Shown piece after piece: positions 35,485 to 38,196 of a stretch of 56,788 nucleotides of DNA (within the stretch, counting starts at the first letter, position 1; every line of letters starts with the position of its first letter). The position numbers and the translations under genes were made by a program. The notes beneath the pieces are model-generated. The model did no database searches, was not told the DNA's origin, and was given only the letters and a program-made list of their open reading frames with translations. The DNA is from a virus (Duplodnaviria > Caudoviricetes), in IMG/VR virus record IMGVR_UViG_3300042868_005444, positions 1 to 56,788 of that record, one strand, 5' to 3'.

Positions 35485-38196
35485 TTATCCGGCGTCCCGG
35501 TCGTGCCGTGCAGTATAGCGCGAAGTGAGAGACATTGCACGGTCGATGTGCCCCTGACCCCGAACAGGCTTTTTCGTGTCGCACGACTTCAGCCAGTGCT
35601 TGAATTCCTTCATCGACATGCGGACCACGGCGCGTTGCCGCTCGGGCCCTTTGCCGTCGGAAAAGCCGTCACGGTACGCCTTGGTGGCGTCTTCGCGGGT
35701 CCGATACCCCAGCATGACCTTGTGCTCGTCAAAGTCGCCGGTGCGCAGATCGTGTTGGTCAATGATGAAGACGTGGTCGCTCTCGCTGTCCGGGCCGATG
35801 CAGACGTCAACGTGGTCACCATCCGCCCCCTCGGTGCGCTTAATGTAGCCGTAGTCGTACGGGAGCTTGACTGACCACTTGTGCCCATTCGGGTCCACGC
35901 CTGACCGCGTCTGACCCTTCATGCTCTCGAGGGTGATCGGCAGGCCTTGGAAGCTGATGTGCCCCTTGAGGTAGTTGCCCGCCTTCTTCTGAGCCTCGGT
36001 CGGATCGGGCAGCACTGCGCCGCCGGTGTTGAAGCCGTAGCGGCTTTGGCGCTCAAGGCCTCGGCCCACGCTTTCGATGAAGCGTTCGTTGATCGGCTGG
36101 AGCTGTTTCTGCTCCTCGGTCAGCTTGCGATATGTCGCCCGACCCTTGTCATCCTGAGAGTACGGGTGAACGATCTGGCCCTTTTTGGTGGGCTTGCCGA
36201 TGAGGGCCTCGGTTACGTCAGGCATGGCGTACTGGCGCTGAACCAGCGGAACGTCGGCAACGTACTCACCGGCAGATGGGTCGGTGTAGGTCGAGTGCTT
36301 GAACGCCGTCTCCTCGCCACGCAGCTTGTCGGGGTCAAACTGAACGATCCGGTGGCCCAGCATGTTTCCGGGCGTGGTCAGAAGTTCTGGGTCGGTGATT
36401 GCGGCCCGCGTGACACCAACATGCGGGAAGCCACGGTCACGCCAGTAGCTGCTGTCCATGAATTTGATGAGGCCAGCCCGGTGTACGCCGGGGAGGTTGC
36501 GAGCAAAATCGGATGCCTCTTTGGAGTTCAGGATGCCGGGCCAGCTCTCCATCGCCGCAGCGCCTTTGGCGCGATCCGCCGGGTCCATATGAAGGCCGGA
36601 GCGAACCGCCGCGTCGAATTCTGCGGCGTCGTCTTTGTGGATGGCGTCCTTGTCGATCTGGGCCGCGACCGCGTCGAACATGTTGTGCGAGCTGTCAACG
36701 GAACGAGGCCCCATCGGGGCGAGAACACCGTACACGGGGCCCTTTTTGGCCGCCTCCCTGATCTTCTTGTTGAAAGATGTCGTGTGGGCCGCGCTATTTG
36801 CCCATACCGCACCGGGGTTCGGCTCAAGCATGTACTTGGGCCCCGCATGCAGGTCGACGTCCCAGTTAAGCTTCTTGTTATTGATGTGGGTCAGGCGACC
36901 AAGGTTTGACCGGTCACCGCCGACGTTGATAAGAGTACCACCCTTGATCTTCTGGTAGGCCTGCTCCCAAGTCATCGGGTTCCGCTGCTTCAAGTTGACG
37001 CCCGGAATGTCAGAAATCTGCGTCTGAACGTCGGTTGGTGCCATCGACTGTTTGACTTTGTAGTAGCTGCCGGTCCCTGTCTCGCCCGCCGTCTTTGTCT
37101 TCATGGTTTCAGCAATAGCCAAAGCCTTTTTGACCATCGCCGGGTCATCTGAAAACGGCGTGTTGATGCGACCAATGGCTTTCTGGATGTCATCACGGCT
37201 TGCATCCATACCCGGCAGGCCGATAGCGGCAAGCGCGCGGGTCAAAGGGTGGTCTTCAATGCTTCCACCGTCCGCATACCCGATCCGACCACCGTTTTTC
37301 GCGCCCCGCATGGCCCGCATGACGTCGTCGTGGGTGGTTTCCTCGTTTCCGGCCTTGTCCCAAATCGCGTGGTGGGTCAAATGCTGCCGGAAAGGCTCCA
37401 AACCGGGGTCCATTTTGGGATTTAGGGCCGCCTGACGGGCTGCGAGGCGGTCAACAGCCGCATACCCGGCCTTCGCCATGGGCTTTTTGGCCTCAGAGGT
37501 GGGCATTCCGGTCTGCAGGATGACCTGACGGGCGTCAAGGGTCGGCTGATCGCCCCGACCAAGCATGGAAGCGACAAAACCAGCTTTCGCCGTGCCAATC
37601 CCACGCATATCCTTGGAGAAATTGCGCCATTCCTCGGGTGAAGACTGGCCGGTGAGGGCCCGTGCGACCAGATCGGACACCTCTTTGTGGCGCGGGCCGA
37701 GGTTTTGGACGGCCCACGGCAGGGCATCCAGCTCCGCGTTCAGGCCAAACGGCTTCATGACCTGCTGGGCATGCGCCACAGCCTCTTCGTCGACCTTTCC
37801 GCGCTCGGCTTGGTCGAGATAACGCTGCCCCATGGGGGTGTGCAACCACTCACCCATCGCGCCCTCGGGGCGGATCATACCGGTCATGCCGGGCGGAAGA
37901 TCAAGACCGGCGGCGCGGACCTTGTCTGCGGTCTGGGCGCGGCGCTGGATCGACGAGCGAGTGATCGCATAGGCCTTGATGAGGTCGCGCGGGGTCAGGC
38001 CACCCTTGGTTGCCCGGCGCGCGGTCTCGTCCATGAAGGCACCGAAGCGCTCGACGTGGCTCGGGATTTCGGGAAGGCCACCCAGCTTCTCCTGAACGTC
38101 GCGCAGGGGGCTCCAGTTCCAATCCTTCATCTTGGGGTTCTCCGGGTCTTGATACCCGGAGACAAGATCGAGTGCGCGCTTTACGGCATCAGACAT
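35485..38196 (-). CDS. modular (polyvalent-type) protein: HhH-GPD glycosylase-like + unknown + inorganic pyrophosphatase-like domain
   Basis: [17 protein letters not shown]...LDARQV...[19 protein letters not shown]...[17 protein letters not shown]...DQ...FDEHKVMLG; domains separated by YADGG and FNTGG. Confidence 0.75.
35512..35540 (-). promoter_or_regulatory. putative sigma70-type promoter
   Basis: GTGCAA (35540-35535) - 17 bp - TATACT (35517-35512), about 45 nt upstream of ATG 35468. Confidence 0.45.

What the first reader, a model, noticed from the sequence alone, without database searches (positions are those of the whole stretch)
37303..38196. HhH-GPD (Ogg-like) DNA glycosylase-like module inside a head-region protein
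Seen: [29 protein letters not shown] and terminal HHAIWD. Known: archaeal-type Ogg glycosylases have a GIGxK HhH motif, a downstream [IL]DxH/R catalytic Asp and a C-terminal Trp. Inference: a packaged base-excision enzyme that repairs phage DNA, removes defence-added base adducts, or attacks modified host DNA. Its position between portal and capsid genes is unusual.
Basis: inference. Interest (0 to 1): 0.7.

Follow-up and report, generated by a model that had tools for sequence, protein, structure and literature searches.

The report
Glycosylase-fold module in phage head protein
The first 300 residues of a large phage protein encoded between the portal and capsid genes fold like a DNA base-excision enzyme of the archaeal Ogg type, and form an unnamed family that phages probably load into the capsid and deliver with their DNA.

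Summary
Window 37303-38196 (-) encodes aa 1-298 of a 903-aa ORF (35485-38196, -), and both quoted peptides are there.

An AlphaFold2 model of aa 1-305 (pLDDT 92.7) matches the three solved Ogg2 8-oxoguanine glycosylases at Z 15.3, 15.0 and 14.8. Other HhH-GPD enzymes follow at Z 10 or less, and unrelated folds start at Z 4.0.

No sequence library recognises the module. It still has 439 cluster representatives, sitting at varying positions in proteins of 251-2296 aa.

- **Catalytic Asp:** D221 is kept in 248 of 250 homologues.
- **Lysine:** K204 is kept in 247 of 250, but it lies one residue after the canonical Schiff-base position, which is Ala or Ser.
- **Ogg2 hallmark:** the free C-terminal Lys is replaced by an internal TTH motif.

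So it has the Ogg2 fold but is not an Ogg2 member.

The host protein is a polyvalent protein. It also carries a possibly PUA/YTH-like middle domain and a C-terminal InPase. The gene order portal, polyvalent proteins, scaffold, capsid is kept in the 54 related viral contigs.

Best reading: a capsid-delivered DNA N-glycosylase of unknown specificity. This is a new variant of a known kind. Activity and packaging are untested.

The parts
35485..38196 (-). 903-aa polyvalent protein ORF: HhH-GPD module, linker, middle domain, InPase
   Evidence: ORF and translation. (Pfam InPase PF18823, aa 734-870, E 8.3e-49). (ATG with an upstream G-rich RBS-like stretch).
37303..38163 (-). HhH-GPD (Ogg2-like) fold module, aa ~12-298
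   Evidence: homologues match query aa ~12-305. AF2 pLDDT 92.7, pTM 0.90, all-alpha. Z 15.3 / 15.0 / 14.8 to Ogg2 structures 3n0u, 3fhg and 3knt over model residues 29-289.
37564..37638 (-). Helix-hairpin-helix, aa 187-211: helix 187-194, hairpin with G199-I-G201-T-A-K204, helix 205-211
   Evidence: DSSP on the model. (translation). (gapless alignment to the Ogg2 HhH). G199 in 246 of 250; G201 in only 156 of 250.
37585..37587 (-). K204, near-invariant lysine one residue after the canonical Schiff-base lysine position
   Evidence: K in 247 of 250. Position 203 is A 157, S 85, P 3, G 3, R 1. A203 aligns with the Lys of E. coli Nth and of Ogg2.
37534..37563 (-). Gly/Pro-rich loop LGRGDQPTL ending in D221, the predicted catalytic Asp and N-cap of helix 222-229
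   Evidence: D221 in 248 of 250 (2 gaps), G213 in 248, G215 in 248, R223 in 248; helix 222-229; aligns with the Ogg2 ...GRKDVSILD motif.
37861..37872 (-). R109-P-E111-G112, invariant motif at the start of helix 110-117
   Evidence: R, P and E each in 250 of 250; G in 246 of 250. One search aligns E111 with the conserved Glu of the Ogg2 ...sEL.FCI.TAN helix (low-confidence alignment).
37357..37386 (-). [10 protein letters not shown], aa 271-280: predicted base-pocket helix with W279 and H275
   Evidence: translation. Q271 244, H275 245, H276 244, W279 245, D280 241, each of 250. W279 aligns with the Ogg2 Trp. Ogg2 has Asp at W-4 in 23 of 24; here it is His.
37324..37338 (-). TTHDD, aa 287-291: occupies the place of the Ogg2 C-terminal Lys
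   Evidence: the last aligned pair is model residue 289 with chain residue 207 (the Ogg2 C-terminus). T288 242, H289 245, D291 241, each of 250.
37258..37302 (-). Inter-module linker [15 protein letters not shown], aa 299-313 (low model confidence)
   Evidence: pLDDT below 50 at aa 302-305. (GG motifs). (GGx[VI] kept in the consensus on both sides of the module).
36022..36996 (-). Middle domain, aa ~401-725: possible PUA-like (YTH/ASCH/EVE) fold with a helical insert
   Evidence: AF2 of aa 306-730, pLDDT 89.3. (ranks 1-10: nine YTH domains and PH1033, Z 7.4-5.8; ASCH, McrB-N and EVE below). (Foldseek found nothing at E<=1e-3).
35587..35997 (-). InPase domain (polyvalent-protein type inorganic pyrophosphatase), aa 734-870
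   Evidence: PF18823, 8.3e-49. (PHROG matches to this part only).
38237..42960 (-). Two upstream large proteins of the same array: 984 aa (Peptidase_M15 plus ART-PolyVal) and 590 aa (no family)
42957..45275 (-). Portal protein (SU10 type), immediately upstream of the array
   Evidence: PF23899, 2.8e-11. (phrog_1216 portal, 1.2e-23).
30131..35540 (-). Downstream head genes: 441-aa Gly/Lys/Pro-rich protein, GroES-like 129 aa, 312-aa scaffold-position ORF, major head protein (30131-31042)
   Evidence: (order kept in related viral contigs).

Best explanation
Residues ~12-298 of the 903-aa ORF are a true HhH-GPD-superfamily domain, closest in structure to Ogg2-type 8-oxoguanine glycosylases. They form a separate, so far unnamed family found as a mobile module of phage polyvalent proteins.

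Proposed mechanism. The polyvalent protein is assembled into the capsid next to the portal and leaves with the DNA (inferred from gene position and the literature on polyvalent proteins). The HhH hairpin (aa 195-204) grips the DNA backbone. A nucleotide is flipped into a pocket lined by W279, H275/H276 and T288/H289. D221, at the N-cap of the helix after the Gly/Pro loop, drives cleavage of the N-glycosidic bond.

The canonical nucleophilic Lys position is Ala or Ser, so the enzyme is probably monofunctional. If the neighbouring K204 can reach C1', it may have an atypical lyase step.

The Ogg2 8-oxoG sensor (the free C-terminal Lys carboxylate) and the Asp at W-4 are both replaced. The excised base is therefore probably not recognised as Ogg2 recognises 8-oxoG.

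Shown here: fold, conservation, modular distribution, synteny. Inferred: catalysis, substrate, packaging.
For: Fold:
- AF2 pLDDT 92.7, pTM 0.90.
- VIA-align against 48,161 chains: 3n0u Z 15.3, rmsd 3.2, 204 of 209 target residues aligned. Ranks 1-25 are 23 HhH-type DNA glycosylases and 2 DUF2419 queuine-salvage enzymes. Rank 26 drops to Z 4.0.
- The three Ogg2 entries score Z 15.3 / 15.0 / 14.8 against 9.7 for the next hit, hOGG1.
- Foldseek's top hits are the same Ogg2 chains, probability 0.99-1.00 but E only 0.04-0.14.
- In the ESM Atlas, the rank-2 viral cluster carries PF22175 Ogg-HhH on 27% of members at score 0.92, a weak lead.

Motif:
- Helix 187-194, hairpin, helix 205-211, Gly/Pro loop, then D221 capping helix 222-229.
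- Gapless alignment to Ogg2 from GxG through the catalytic Asp.

Conservation in 250 homologues: D221 248, K204 247, R109/P110/E111 250 each, W279 245, H275 245, H289 245.

Modularity:
- 439 representatives, with the module at varying positions in proteins of 251-2296 aa.
- Partner domains in 27 long homologues: ART-PolyVal in 12, PBECR5 in 3, Hydrolase_2 in 3, LPD23 in 2.

Context:
- InPase in the same protein; Peptidase_M15 and ART-PolyVal in the neighbouring protein; portal just upstream.
- In the 54 related viral loci, all 47 portal matches found lie upstream and on the same strand. A scaffold-position ORF is found in 38 of 54 and the capsid gene in 30 of 54, both downstream.
- Iyer et al. 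2017 argue that such phage proteins are packaged and injected (passages).
Against: - No sequence method links the module to HhH-GPD. Pfam, PHROGs, NCBIfam and PDB sequences give nothing even at E<=10. PF00730 finds nothing in the whole phage record.
- hhalign against E. coli Nth gives probability 0.16% and against a 30-sequence Ogg2 profile about 1%. The residue register therefore rests on a weak alignment plus the first and last aligned residues of the structural match. I could not get model coordinates to measure distances.
- The canonical Lys position is never Lys in the 250 homologues.
- The second hairpin Gly (G201) is kept in only 156 of 250.
- The many invariant charged residues (D71, K74, R85, R109, E111, R223, R254, H275, H276, H289, D291) make a more polar site than is typical for DNA glycosylases (my knowledge). 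That would also suit a nucleotide substrate.
- A shared fold does not show function. Glycosylase-fold enzymes that do not excise DNA bases exist: QNG1/DUF2419 (Z 8.9) and PaMx11 PUGT.
- No virion proteomics or enzyme assay exists for any member found. All homologues are named hypothetical, and one is annotated 'type I restriction enzyme'.
Confidence: 0.6

Rival explanations
1. It is an ordinary 8-oxoguanine (Ogg2-like) repair glycosylase/lyase. The phage carries it to clean oxidised guanines from its own genome on entry, using K204 as the Schiff-base nucleophile.
For: - Ogg2 enzymes are by far the nearest structures (Z about 15 against 10 or less for all others).
- Asp, Lys and the stacking Trp are near-invariant.
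- W279 aligns with the Ogg2 Trp.
- The Ogg review states that the lyase lysine may be incidental to catalysis (passages).
Against: - The strictly conserved free C-terminal Lys that senses N7-H of 8-oxoG (passages; 29 of 30 archaeal Ogg2) cannot exist in an internal module. Its place is taken by TTH.
- The Asp at W-4 (23 of 24 Ogg2) is His here.
- The lysine is shifted by one residue, and position 5 is K in 24 of 24 Ogg2.
- PF22175 does not match.
Confidence: 0.12
2. It flips bases but does not excise them. Either it is a DNA base-modifying transferase like the glycosylase-fold PaMx11 gp46 (PUGT), or it is a non-catalytic DNA or modified-base binding module that anchors the polyvalent protein to packaged DNA.
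For: - PUGT appears in the fold list (rank 26, Z 4.0, 202 residues aligned).
- Its authors describe PUGT as glycosidase/DNA-lyase-like, with the target nucleotide inserted into its catalytic centre (passages).
- An InPase domain in the same protein could remove pyrophosphate.
- A possibly PUA-like reader domain follows the module.
Against: - Z 4.0 against 15 for true glycosylases.
- The Asp that defines glycosylase chemistry is invariant.
- Across about 30 ORF frames scanned with Pfam or PHROGs, I saw no hydroxymethylase, DNA kinase or other hypermodification gene.
- Only 13 of 54 related loci keep InPase.
- About 26 invariant positions argue against a mere anchor.
Confidence: 0.12
3. It is a glycosidase acting on a free nucleotide, nucleoside or nucleotide-derived signal, like the queuosine-nucleotide hydrolase QNG1/DUF2419. 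Its role would be to degrade a host defence signal or to salvage a base.
For: - DUF2419 enzymes are among the fold matches (Z 8.9 and 8.5; 9.3).
- The site is unusually polar and charged.
- Iyer et al. suggest that the fused InPase and other polyvalent domains target nucleotides made in response to infection (passages).
Against: - The match to DNA-bound Ogg2 is much stronger than the match to DUF2419.
- The HhH DNA-backbone-binding hairpin and the Gly/Pro-Asp motif are retained.
- No nucleotide-binding family is detected.
Confidence: 0.1

Closest known systems
Ogg2 family of 8-oxoguanine DNA glycosylase/lyases (Pfam PF22175 Ogg-HhH; PDB 3n0u Thermotoga maritima, 3fhg Sulfolobus solfataricus, 3knt Methanocaldococcus jannaschii)
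   Same: - Two-domain all-alpha fold over essentially the whole Ogg2 chain: 198-204 of 205-209 residues aligned, rmsd 3.0-3.2, Z 14.8-15.3.
- HhH hairpin, Gly/Pro loop and catalytic Asp in a gapless register.
- A conserved Trp about 9-10 residues before the point where Ogg2 ends.
   Different: - About 85 extra residues.
- No significant sequence similarity.
- Ala or Ser at the Schiff-base Lys position, with Lys at +1.
- His instead of Asp at W-4.
- Internal TTHxD instead of the free C-terminal Lys.
- Embedded in a 903-aa multidomain phage protein rather than a ~207-aa stand-alone repair enzyme.
Other HhH-GPD superfamily glycosylases (EndoIII/Nth, MutY, AlkA, MagIII, OGG1, AGOG, ROS1, MBD4)
   Same: Common fold (Z 10.1 down to 5.1) and the HhH plus Gly/Pro plus Asp signature.
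   Different: - About 5 Z units further away than Ogg2.
- Pfam PF00730 does not match.
- I saw no Fe-S cluster cysteine motif in the module (read by eye).
Phage polyvalent proteins (Iyer, Burroughs, Anand, de Souza, Aravind 2017, PMC5512222)
   Same: - A large multidomain protein with InPase, next to a protein with ART-PolyVal and a peptidase, encoded beside portal and head genes.
- Modules shuffled between homologues.
   Different: - In the main text of that paper 'glycosylase' occurs 0 times, and ASCH, EVE, PUA and YTH occur 0 times.
- None of the Pfam LPD models matches this module.
- The paper's supplementary domain lists could not be seen.
Glycosylase-fold enzymes with other chemistry: QNG1/DUF2419 (queuine salvage) and PaMx11 gp46 PUGT (DNA hypermodification)
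   Same: Fold-level resemblance: Z 8.9 and 4.0. PUGT is also a phage enzyme acting on a nucleotide inserted into its catalytic centre.
   Different: Much weaker structural match than to Ogg2. No supporting pathway genes were seen in the window.

Membership tests
HhH-GPD superfamily (structural) | Two-domain all-alpha glycosylase fold | tested here: met
   Z 15.3 at the top; ranks 1-25 are all glycosylase-fold enzymes; rank 26 is Z 4.0; 100 of 989 re-aligned chains reach Z>=8.
HhH-GPD superfamily (structural) | Helix-hairpin-helix with a Gly-containing hairpin | tested here: met
   helix 187-194, hairpin 195-204, helix 205-211. G199 in 246 of 250; G201 in only 156 of 250.
HhH-GPD superfamily (structural) | Gly/Pro-rich loop followed by a conserved Asp at a helix N-terminus | tested here: met
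   [10 protein letters not shown]221. D221 in 248 of 250. Helix 222-229.
HhH-GPD superfamily (sequence models PF00730, PF22175) | Match to the Pfam HMM above its cut-off | tested here: not met
   no family at E<=10 for aa 1-330. PF00730 has 0 matches in the phage record, while all 14 control genomes match.
Ogg2 (archaeal-type Ogg) | Nearest structural neighbours are Ogg2 | tested here: met
   3n0u 15.3, 3fhg 15.0, 3knt 14.8; the next hit is 9.7.
Ogg2 (archaeal-type Ogg) | Schiff-base Lys at GxGxK (hairpin position 5) | tested here: not met
   K in 24 of the 24 Ogg2 sequences that my motif pattern matched (of 30 taken); here A 157, S 85, P 3, G 3, R 1; K sits at position 6 in 247 of 250.
Ogg2 (archaeal-type Ogg) | Strictly conserved free C-terminal Lys (8-oxoG N7-H sensor) | tested here: not met
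   (review passages); 29 of 30 Ogg2 end in K. Here the chain continues for about 600 aa and the aligned position is T288/H289. Proteolytic release at the linker was not tested.
Ogg2 (archaeal-type Ogg) | Base-stacking Trp with Asp four residues before it | tested here: inconclusive
   W279 (245 of 250) aligns with the Ogg2 Trp, but the hhalign probability is only about 1%. The W-4 residue is His275, not Asp (Asp in 23 of 24 Ogg2).
Ogg2 (archaeal-type Ogg) | 8-oxoG excision and AP-lyase activity | not testable with these tools
   Needs enzyme assays.
Phage polyvalent proteins | Several unrelated effector domains in one polypeptide, with modules shuffled among homologues | tested here: met
   (InPase). 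(module at varying positions; 56 of 150 homologues also carry the middle domain, 9 of those with it upstream of the module). (ART-PolyVal in 12 of 27).
Phage polyvalent proteins | Encoded with portal and head genes | tested here: met
   portal found upstream in 47 of 54 related loci.
Phage polyvalent proteins | Packaged in the virion and injected | not testable with these tools
   Needs virion proteomics.
PUA-like fold (YTH/ASCH/EVE), for the middle domain only | Beta-barrel reader fold | tested here: inconclusive
   ranks 1-10 are nine YTH domains and PH1033 (Z 7.4-5.8, 118-146 residues aligned), with ASCH, McrB-N and EVE below. All Z values are under 8, and Foldseek found nothing at E<=1e-3.

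The most novel reading that the evidence does not exclude
The glycosylase-fold module and the PUA/YTH-like middle domain, joined in 74 of the 120 best middle-domain proteins, work together as an injected eraser of modified bases. The reader domain finds a modified or defence-installed base in DNA, such as a methylated, ADP-ribosylated or deazapurine base. The HhH-GPD module excises it at the moment of genome entry. This would be a phage counter-defence or host-attack mechanism based on base excision, which I did not find in print in the searches.
Probability: 0.15. Interest if true: 0.85.

Novelty: new variant of a known kind. Interest (0 to 1): 0.58.

Why it matters
Phage proteins delivered with the genome act before any phage gene is expressed, so they shape the first minutes of the conflict with the host.

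A conserved glycosylase-fold enzyme among them would add base excision to the known injected activities. It has 439 cluster representatives, is named in no library, and is absent from the text of the polyvalent-protein catalogue.

It also gives the DNA-repair field an Ogg2-like scaffold with three natural changes to study: a shifted lysine, a His for Asp exchange in the pocket, and an internal replacement of the C-terminal lysine sensor.

Earlier unchecked notes of this scan describe glycosylase-like cargo fused to head proteases in unrelated phages. Capsid delivery of such enzymes may therefore be a wider theme.

Tried and rejected
**Sequence-level searches**
- Pfam (E<=10), PHROGs, NCBIfam, PDB phmmer and a PDB profile search gave nothing for aa 1-330, apart from one chance FN3 hit at E 1.9.
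- Foldseek against PDB found no hit at E<=1e-3 for either model. VIA-align was needed.
- hhalign of the family profile against E. coli Nth (probability 0.16%) and against 30 archaeal Ogg2 (about 1%) was not significant. I use it only for register.

**Access limits**
- Model coordinates are not in the script box. I could not measure the K204 to C1' distance or pocket geometry.
I reached archaeal genomes through a 16S primer scan instead.

**Distribution**
- No match in 72,556 plasmid records.
- One match among 50,697 phage records, a metagenomic genome whose homologue is annotated 'type I restriction enzyme'. I found nothing to support that annotation.
- Cluster look-up of 10 homologues gave no informative name.
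- Presence in bacterial genomes as prophage was not tested, because the single genome-contig scan went to the Ogg2 reference set.

**Other checks**
- I looked for DNA-hypermodification or repair partners in about 30 ORF frames of the window. None was seen. The scans found SprT-like, SSB/DUF669, primase-helicase, terminase and tail genes.
- GG dipeptides are not enriched overall in the 984-, 590- and 903-aa proteins (13, 4 and 7 observed; 12.7, 3.9 and 8.0 expected). They are enriched only in the 441-aa protein (15 against 8.7). The linker idea therefore rests on the recurring longer motif, not on counts.
- Earlier-findings look-ups by sequence and by place gave nothing.
- Complex prediction, sequencing-run tools and RNA tools were not used.
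Full report
**1. Observation**

The finding's coordinates (37303-38196, minus strand) are the first 298 codons of a single 903-aa ORF at 35485-38196. The ORF starts at an ATG preceded by a G-rich ribosome-binding-like stretch. Both quoted peptides are present, at aa 197-225 and aa 275-280.

**2. Sequence libraries do not know the module**

For the whole protein, Pfam finds only a C-terminal InPase domain (PF18823, aa 734-870, E 8.3e-49). For aa 1-330 there is no match in any of the following:
- Pfam at E<=10
- PHROGs
- NCBIfam
- PDB sequences, queried by single sequence or by profile

The HhH-GPD model PF00730 finds nothing anywhere in this 56,788-base virus record, although it matches in all 14 control genomes.

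**3. It is a discrete, widespread, mobile module**

phmmer against 1.84 billion cluster representatives gave 439 proteins at E<=1e-3, 368 at E<=1e-10 and 240 at E<=1e-30. In the 150 listed, query residues ~12-305 match as one block. That block lies anywhere from the N-terminus to residue ~1400 of proteins 251-2296 aa long.

A second search, among proteins of 167-534 aa, gave 134 hits. Every name given by a source is 'hypothetical protein', and no glycosylase Pfam family is precomputed for any of them (only PF19846 on two). Ten NCBI-sourced clusters also gave no informative name.

Elsewhere:
- Plasmid records hold none (0 of 72,556).
- GenBank phage records hold one, the metagenomic MW202675.1 at 90% identity. 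Its homologue is annotated 'type I restriction enzyme', and nothing here supports that annotation.

**4. Fold**

With a 40-sequence alignment (A1), AlphaFold2 gave an all-alpha model with mean pLDDT 92.7 and pTM 0.90.

- **Foldseek against PDB.** It ranked the Ogg2 enzymes first (3n0u, 3fhg, 3knt; probability 0.99-1.00), but with E of only 0.04-0.14.
- **VIA-align against 48,161 representative chains.**
  - 3n0u scored Z 15.3, rmsd 3.2, with 204 of 209 residues aligned over model residues 29-289.
  - Ranks 1-25 are 23 HhH-type DNA glycosylases (EndoIII, MagIII, OGG1, NTHL1, Mag1, Mig, AGOG, ROS1, MutY, AlkA, MBD4, TAG) and two DUF2419 queuine-salvage enzymes, at Z 10.1 down to 5.0.
  - Rank 26 falls to Z 4.0.
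- **Re-alignment of Foldseek's top chains.** The three Ogg2 entries score Z 15.3, 15.0 and 14.8, against 9.7 for the next hit, hOGG1.

The top score is above the level the tool warns about for helical proteins (about 13). The list is homogeneous, and nearly the whole Ogg2 chain is covered. I therefore take the fold as established.

Two weaker supports:
- In the ESM Atlas, the rank-2 hit is a viral cluster with PF22175 Ogg-HhH on 27% of members, at score 0.92.
- In the viral structure library, family members are 'uncharacterized protein' of uncultured phages. More distant phage proteins at about 14% identity also match at probability 1.00.

**5. Active-site register**

To get real Ogg2 sequences, I reached archaeal genomes through a 16S primer scan. 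I then took 30 PF22175-positive ORFs from them.

hhalign places the Ogg2 stretch [25 protein letters not shown] against [25 protein letters not shown] without a gap. The matches are:
- G199 and G201 with the hairpin glycines
- G213-R214-x-D216 with G-R-K-D
- L220-D221 with L-D, where that D is the Ogg2 catalytic Asp

The alignment is not significant by itself (probability about 1%). It does agree with the model's secondary structure: helix 187-194, hairpin, helix 205-211, loop, and D221 capping helix 222-229.

In this register the canonical lysine falls on A203, and K204 falls on the Ogg2 Glu. The E. coli Nth alignment puts K120 on A203 as well.

| Position | This family, of 250 homologues | Archaeal Ogg2 |
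|---|---|---|
| Catalytic Asp (D221) | 248, the other 2 being gaps | not counted |
| Hairpin position 5 (aa 203) | A 157, S 85, P 3, G 3, R 1; never K | K in 24 of 24 |
| Hairpin position 6 (K204) | K 247 | E in 24 of 24 |
| Stacking Trp (W279) | 245 | Trp lies 9 residues from the C-terminus in 23 of 24 |
| Trp minus 4 (H275) | H 245 | D in 23 of 24 |
| C-terminal sensor | H289 245, T288 242 (internal) | free C-terminal K in 29 of 30 |
| R109 / P110 / E111 | 250 each | not compared |

The '24' in the Ogg2 column is the number of the 30 sequences that my strict motif pattern matched.

The review by Faucher et al. 2012 (passages read) states three things about Ogg2:
- Trp198 stacks on the base.
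- Asp194 is the counterpart of OGG1 Gln315.

In the structural match, the last aligned pair is model residue 289 with Ogg2 residue 207. The invariant T288-H289 therefore sits where Ogg2 ends.

So the chemistry-defining Asp is kept, while the lysine position and two of the three base-recognition elements differ. The numbering MjaOgg K129/D147 is my recollection and comes from no call.

**6. The rest of the protein**

*Linker.* After the module comes a low-confidence linker, [15 protein letters not shown].

*Middle domain: fold.* A second model, of aa 306-730 (A3, 30 sequences), reached pLDDT 89.3.
- Foldseek found nothing at E<=1e-3.
- In VIA-align, ranks 1-10 are nine YTH domains and the archaeal PH1033 protein (Z 7.4-5.8, 118-146 residues aligned).
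- ASCH, McrB N-terminal, EVE/THYN1 and VcaM4I domains follow at Z 5.0-4.0.
- A roughly 100-residue helical insert matches CARD and death domains.

All Z values are under 8. A PUA-like 'modified-base reader' fold is therefore a lead and is not shown.

*Middle domain: co-occurrence with the module.*
- Of the 150 listed homologues of the glycosylase-fold module, 56 also carry this middle domain, 9 of them with it upstream of the module.
- Among the 78 homologues with at least 350 residues downstream of the module, 47 carry the middle domain.
- Of the best 120 proteins found with the middle domain as query (255 hits in all), 74 carry the module upstream. Of those, 50 have the same module, middle domain, InPase order as here.
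- The other 46 of the 120 lack the module.

The association is frequent but not obligatory.

*Other partners.* In 27 long homologues the other partner domains are ART-PolyVal (12), PBECR5 (3), Hydrolase_2 (3) and LPD23 (2).

**7. Genomic context**

The window is a virus record estimated 93% complete. On the minus strand the gene order is:

| Position | Gene | Evidence |
|---|---|---|
| 47014-48774 | terminase large subunit | |
| 42957-45275 | SU10-type portal | |
| 40006-42960 | 984-aa protein with Peptidase_M15 and ART-PolyVal | |
| 38237-40009 | 590-aa protein, no family | |
| 35485-38196 | the 903-aa protein | |
| 34215-35540 | 441-aa Gly/Lys/Pro-rich protein | |
| 33544-33933 | GroES-like small ORF | |
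| 32669-33607 | 312-aa ORF in the scaffold position | |
| 30131-31042 | major head protein | |

In the 54 related viral contigs, every gene match found lies on the same strand as the module. The table counts loci in which a tblastn match was found.

| Neighbour | Loci with a match (of 54) | Place relative to the module |
|---|---|---|
| Portal | 47 | upstream |
| 441-aa protein | 44 | downstream |
| Scaffold-position ORF | 38 | downstream |
| Major capsid protein | 30 | downstream |
| InPase | 13 | in the same protein |

Absences partly reflect contig ends. Module identity falls to 44% while capsid identity stays at 82-100%.

This is the setting Iyer et al. 2017 describe for phage polyvalent proteins, which they argue are packaged in the capsid and injected (passages). 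The position is therefore typical, not unusual.

That paper's main text never uses 'glycosylase', ASCH, EVE, PUA or YTH.

**8. Mechanism and rivals**

I rate a capsid-delivered DNA N-glycosylase with a non-Ogg2 specificity at about 0.6. It would be probably monofunctional, or would use the shifted K204. The rivals are:
- an orthodox 8-oxoG repair enzyme (0.12)
- a base-flipping transferase or anchor, on the precedent of PaMx11 PUGT, which its authors describe as glycosidase/DNA-lyase-like (passages) (0.12)
- a nucleotide glycosidase like QNG1/DUF2419 (0.10)

About 30 ORF frames of the window were scanned and showed no DNA-hypermodification genes.

**9. Literature and earlier notes**

Three full-text searches found no paper describing such a module:
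- HhH-GPD + phage + polyvalent (1 unrelated paper)
- DNA glycosylase + virion + ejected + phage + anti-defense (listing only, none on this)
- polyvalent protein + glycosylase (2 papers)

I read passages in one of the two papers (PMC7824862). There the terms are unconnected. The other I saw only in the listing.

Earlier unchecked notes of this scan describe head-maturation proteases fused to glycosylase-like cargo in unrelated phages. I did not test them. They suggest that capsid-delivered glycosylase-fold enzymes recur.

**10. Verdict**

- The fold inference and the conserved Asp/Lys pair are confirmed.
- Membership in Ogg2 proper is rejected on three tested features.
- Function and packaging remain inferred.
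- Classification: a new variant of a known kind, of moderate to good interest.

Noticed in passing
window 36022-36996 (-), aa ~401-725 of the 903-aa ORF: The middle domain is well modelled (pLDDT 89.3). Its best fold matches are YTH, ASCH, EVE and McrB-N modified-base reader domains (Z 7.4-4.0), with a CARD-like helical insert. It is itself a mobile module, often the last domain of a protein: in many homologues it ends 16 aa before the C-terminus.
   Followed up: partly
window 37258-37302 (-); 984-aa ORF aa 237-244 and its C-terminus; 590-aa ORF aa ~570-577: A short motif recurs at module boundaries and protein ends: [32 protein letters not shown] and AFKRGGSV. GGx[VI] is also kept in the family consensus on both sides of the glycosylase-fold module. 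It could be a processing or docking site. GG dipeptides as such are not enriched.
   Followed up: partly
window 34215-35540 (-): A 441-aa Gly/Lys/Pro-rich protein has 15 GG dipeptides (8.7 expected) and PMPMP runs. It matches only two small PHROGs of unknown function. A match is found downstream of the module in 44 of 54 related loci.
   Followed up: partly
window 40006-42960 (-): A 984-aa polyvalent protein directly after the portal: Peptidase_M15 (aa 120-217), a phrog_30118 domain (aa 623-791) and ART-PolyVal with two matched stretches (best aa 814-963).
   Followed up: no
window 38237-40009 (-): A 590-aa protein between the two annotated polyvalent proteins has no match in Pfam, PHROGs or NCBIfam. 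A homologue is found in 29 of 54 related loci.
   Followed up: no
L001 (MW202675.1) 9001-11697: The 90%-identical homologue in the only related GenBank phage record is annotated 'type I restriction enzyme', and its 441-aa neighbour is annotated 'yenB'. Nothing found here supports either name.
   Followed up: partly
window 298-1032 (+): An SprT-like (PF10263, E 3.7e-8) protein is encoded in the early region. The SprT/Spartan family includes DNA-protein crosslink proteases (my knowledge). No link to the glycosylase-fold module was tested.
   Followed up: no
window 33544-33933 (-): A 129-aa ORF with a weak GroES-like PHROG match (E 8.9e-7) sits between the 441-aa protein and the scaffold-position ORF. 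No prohead protease was recognised in the head module.
   Followed up: no
L185 and L186, about 8999-10903: In two related viral contigs the middle domain lies upstream of the glycosylase-fold module, the reverse of the order in the window.
   Followed up: no
rank 26 (PDB 8z2m): After all the glycosylases, the first other fold match is the phage DNA-hypermodification enzyme PaMx11 gp46 (Z 4.0, 202 residues aligned). Its authors call it glycosidase/DNA-lyase-like.
   Followed up: partly
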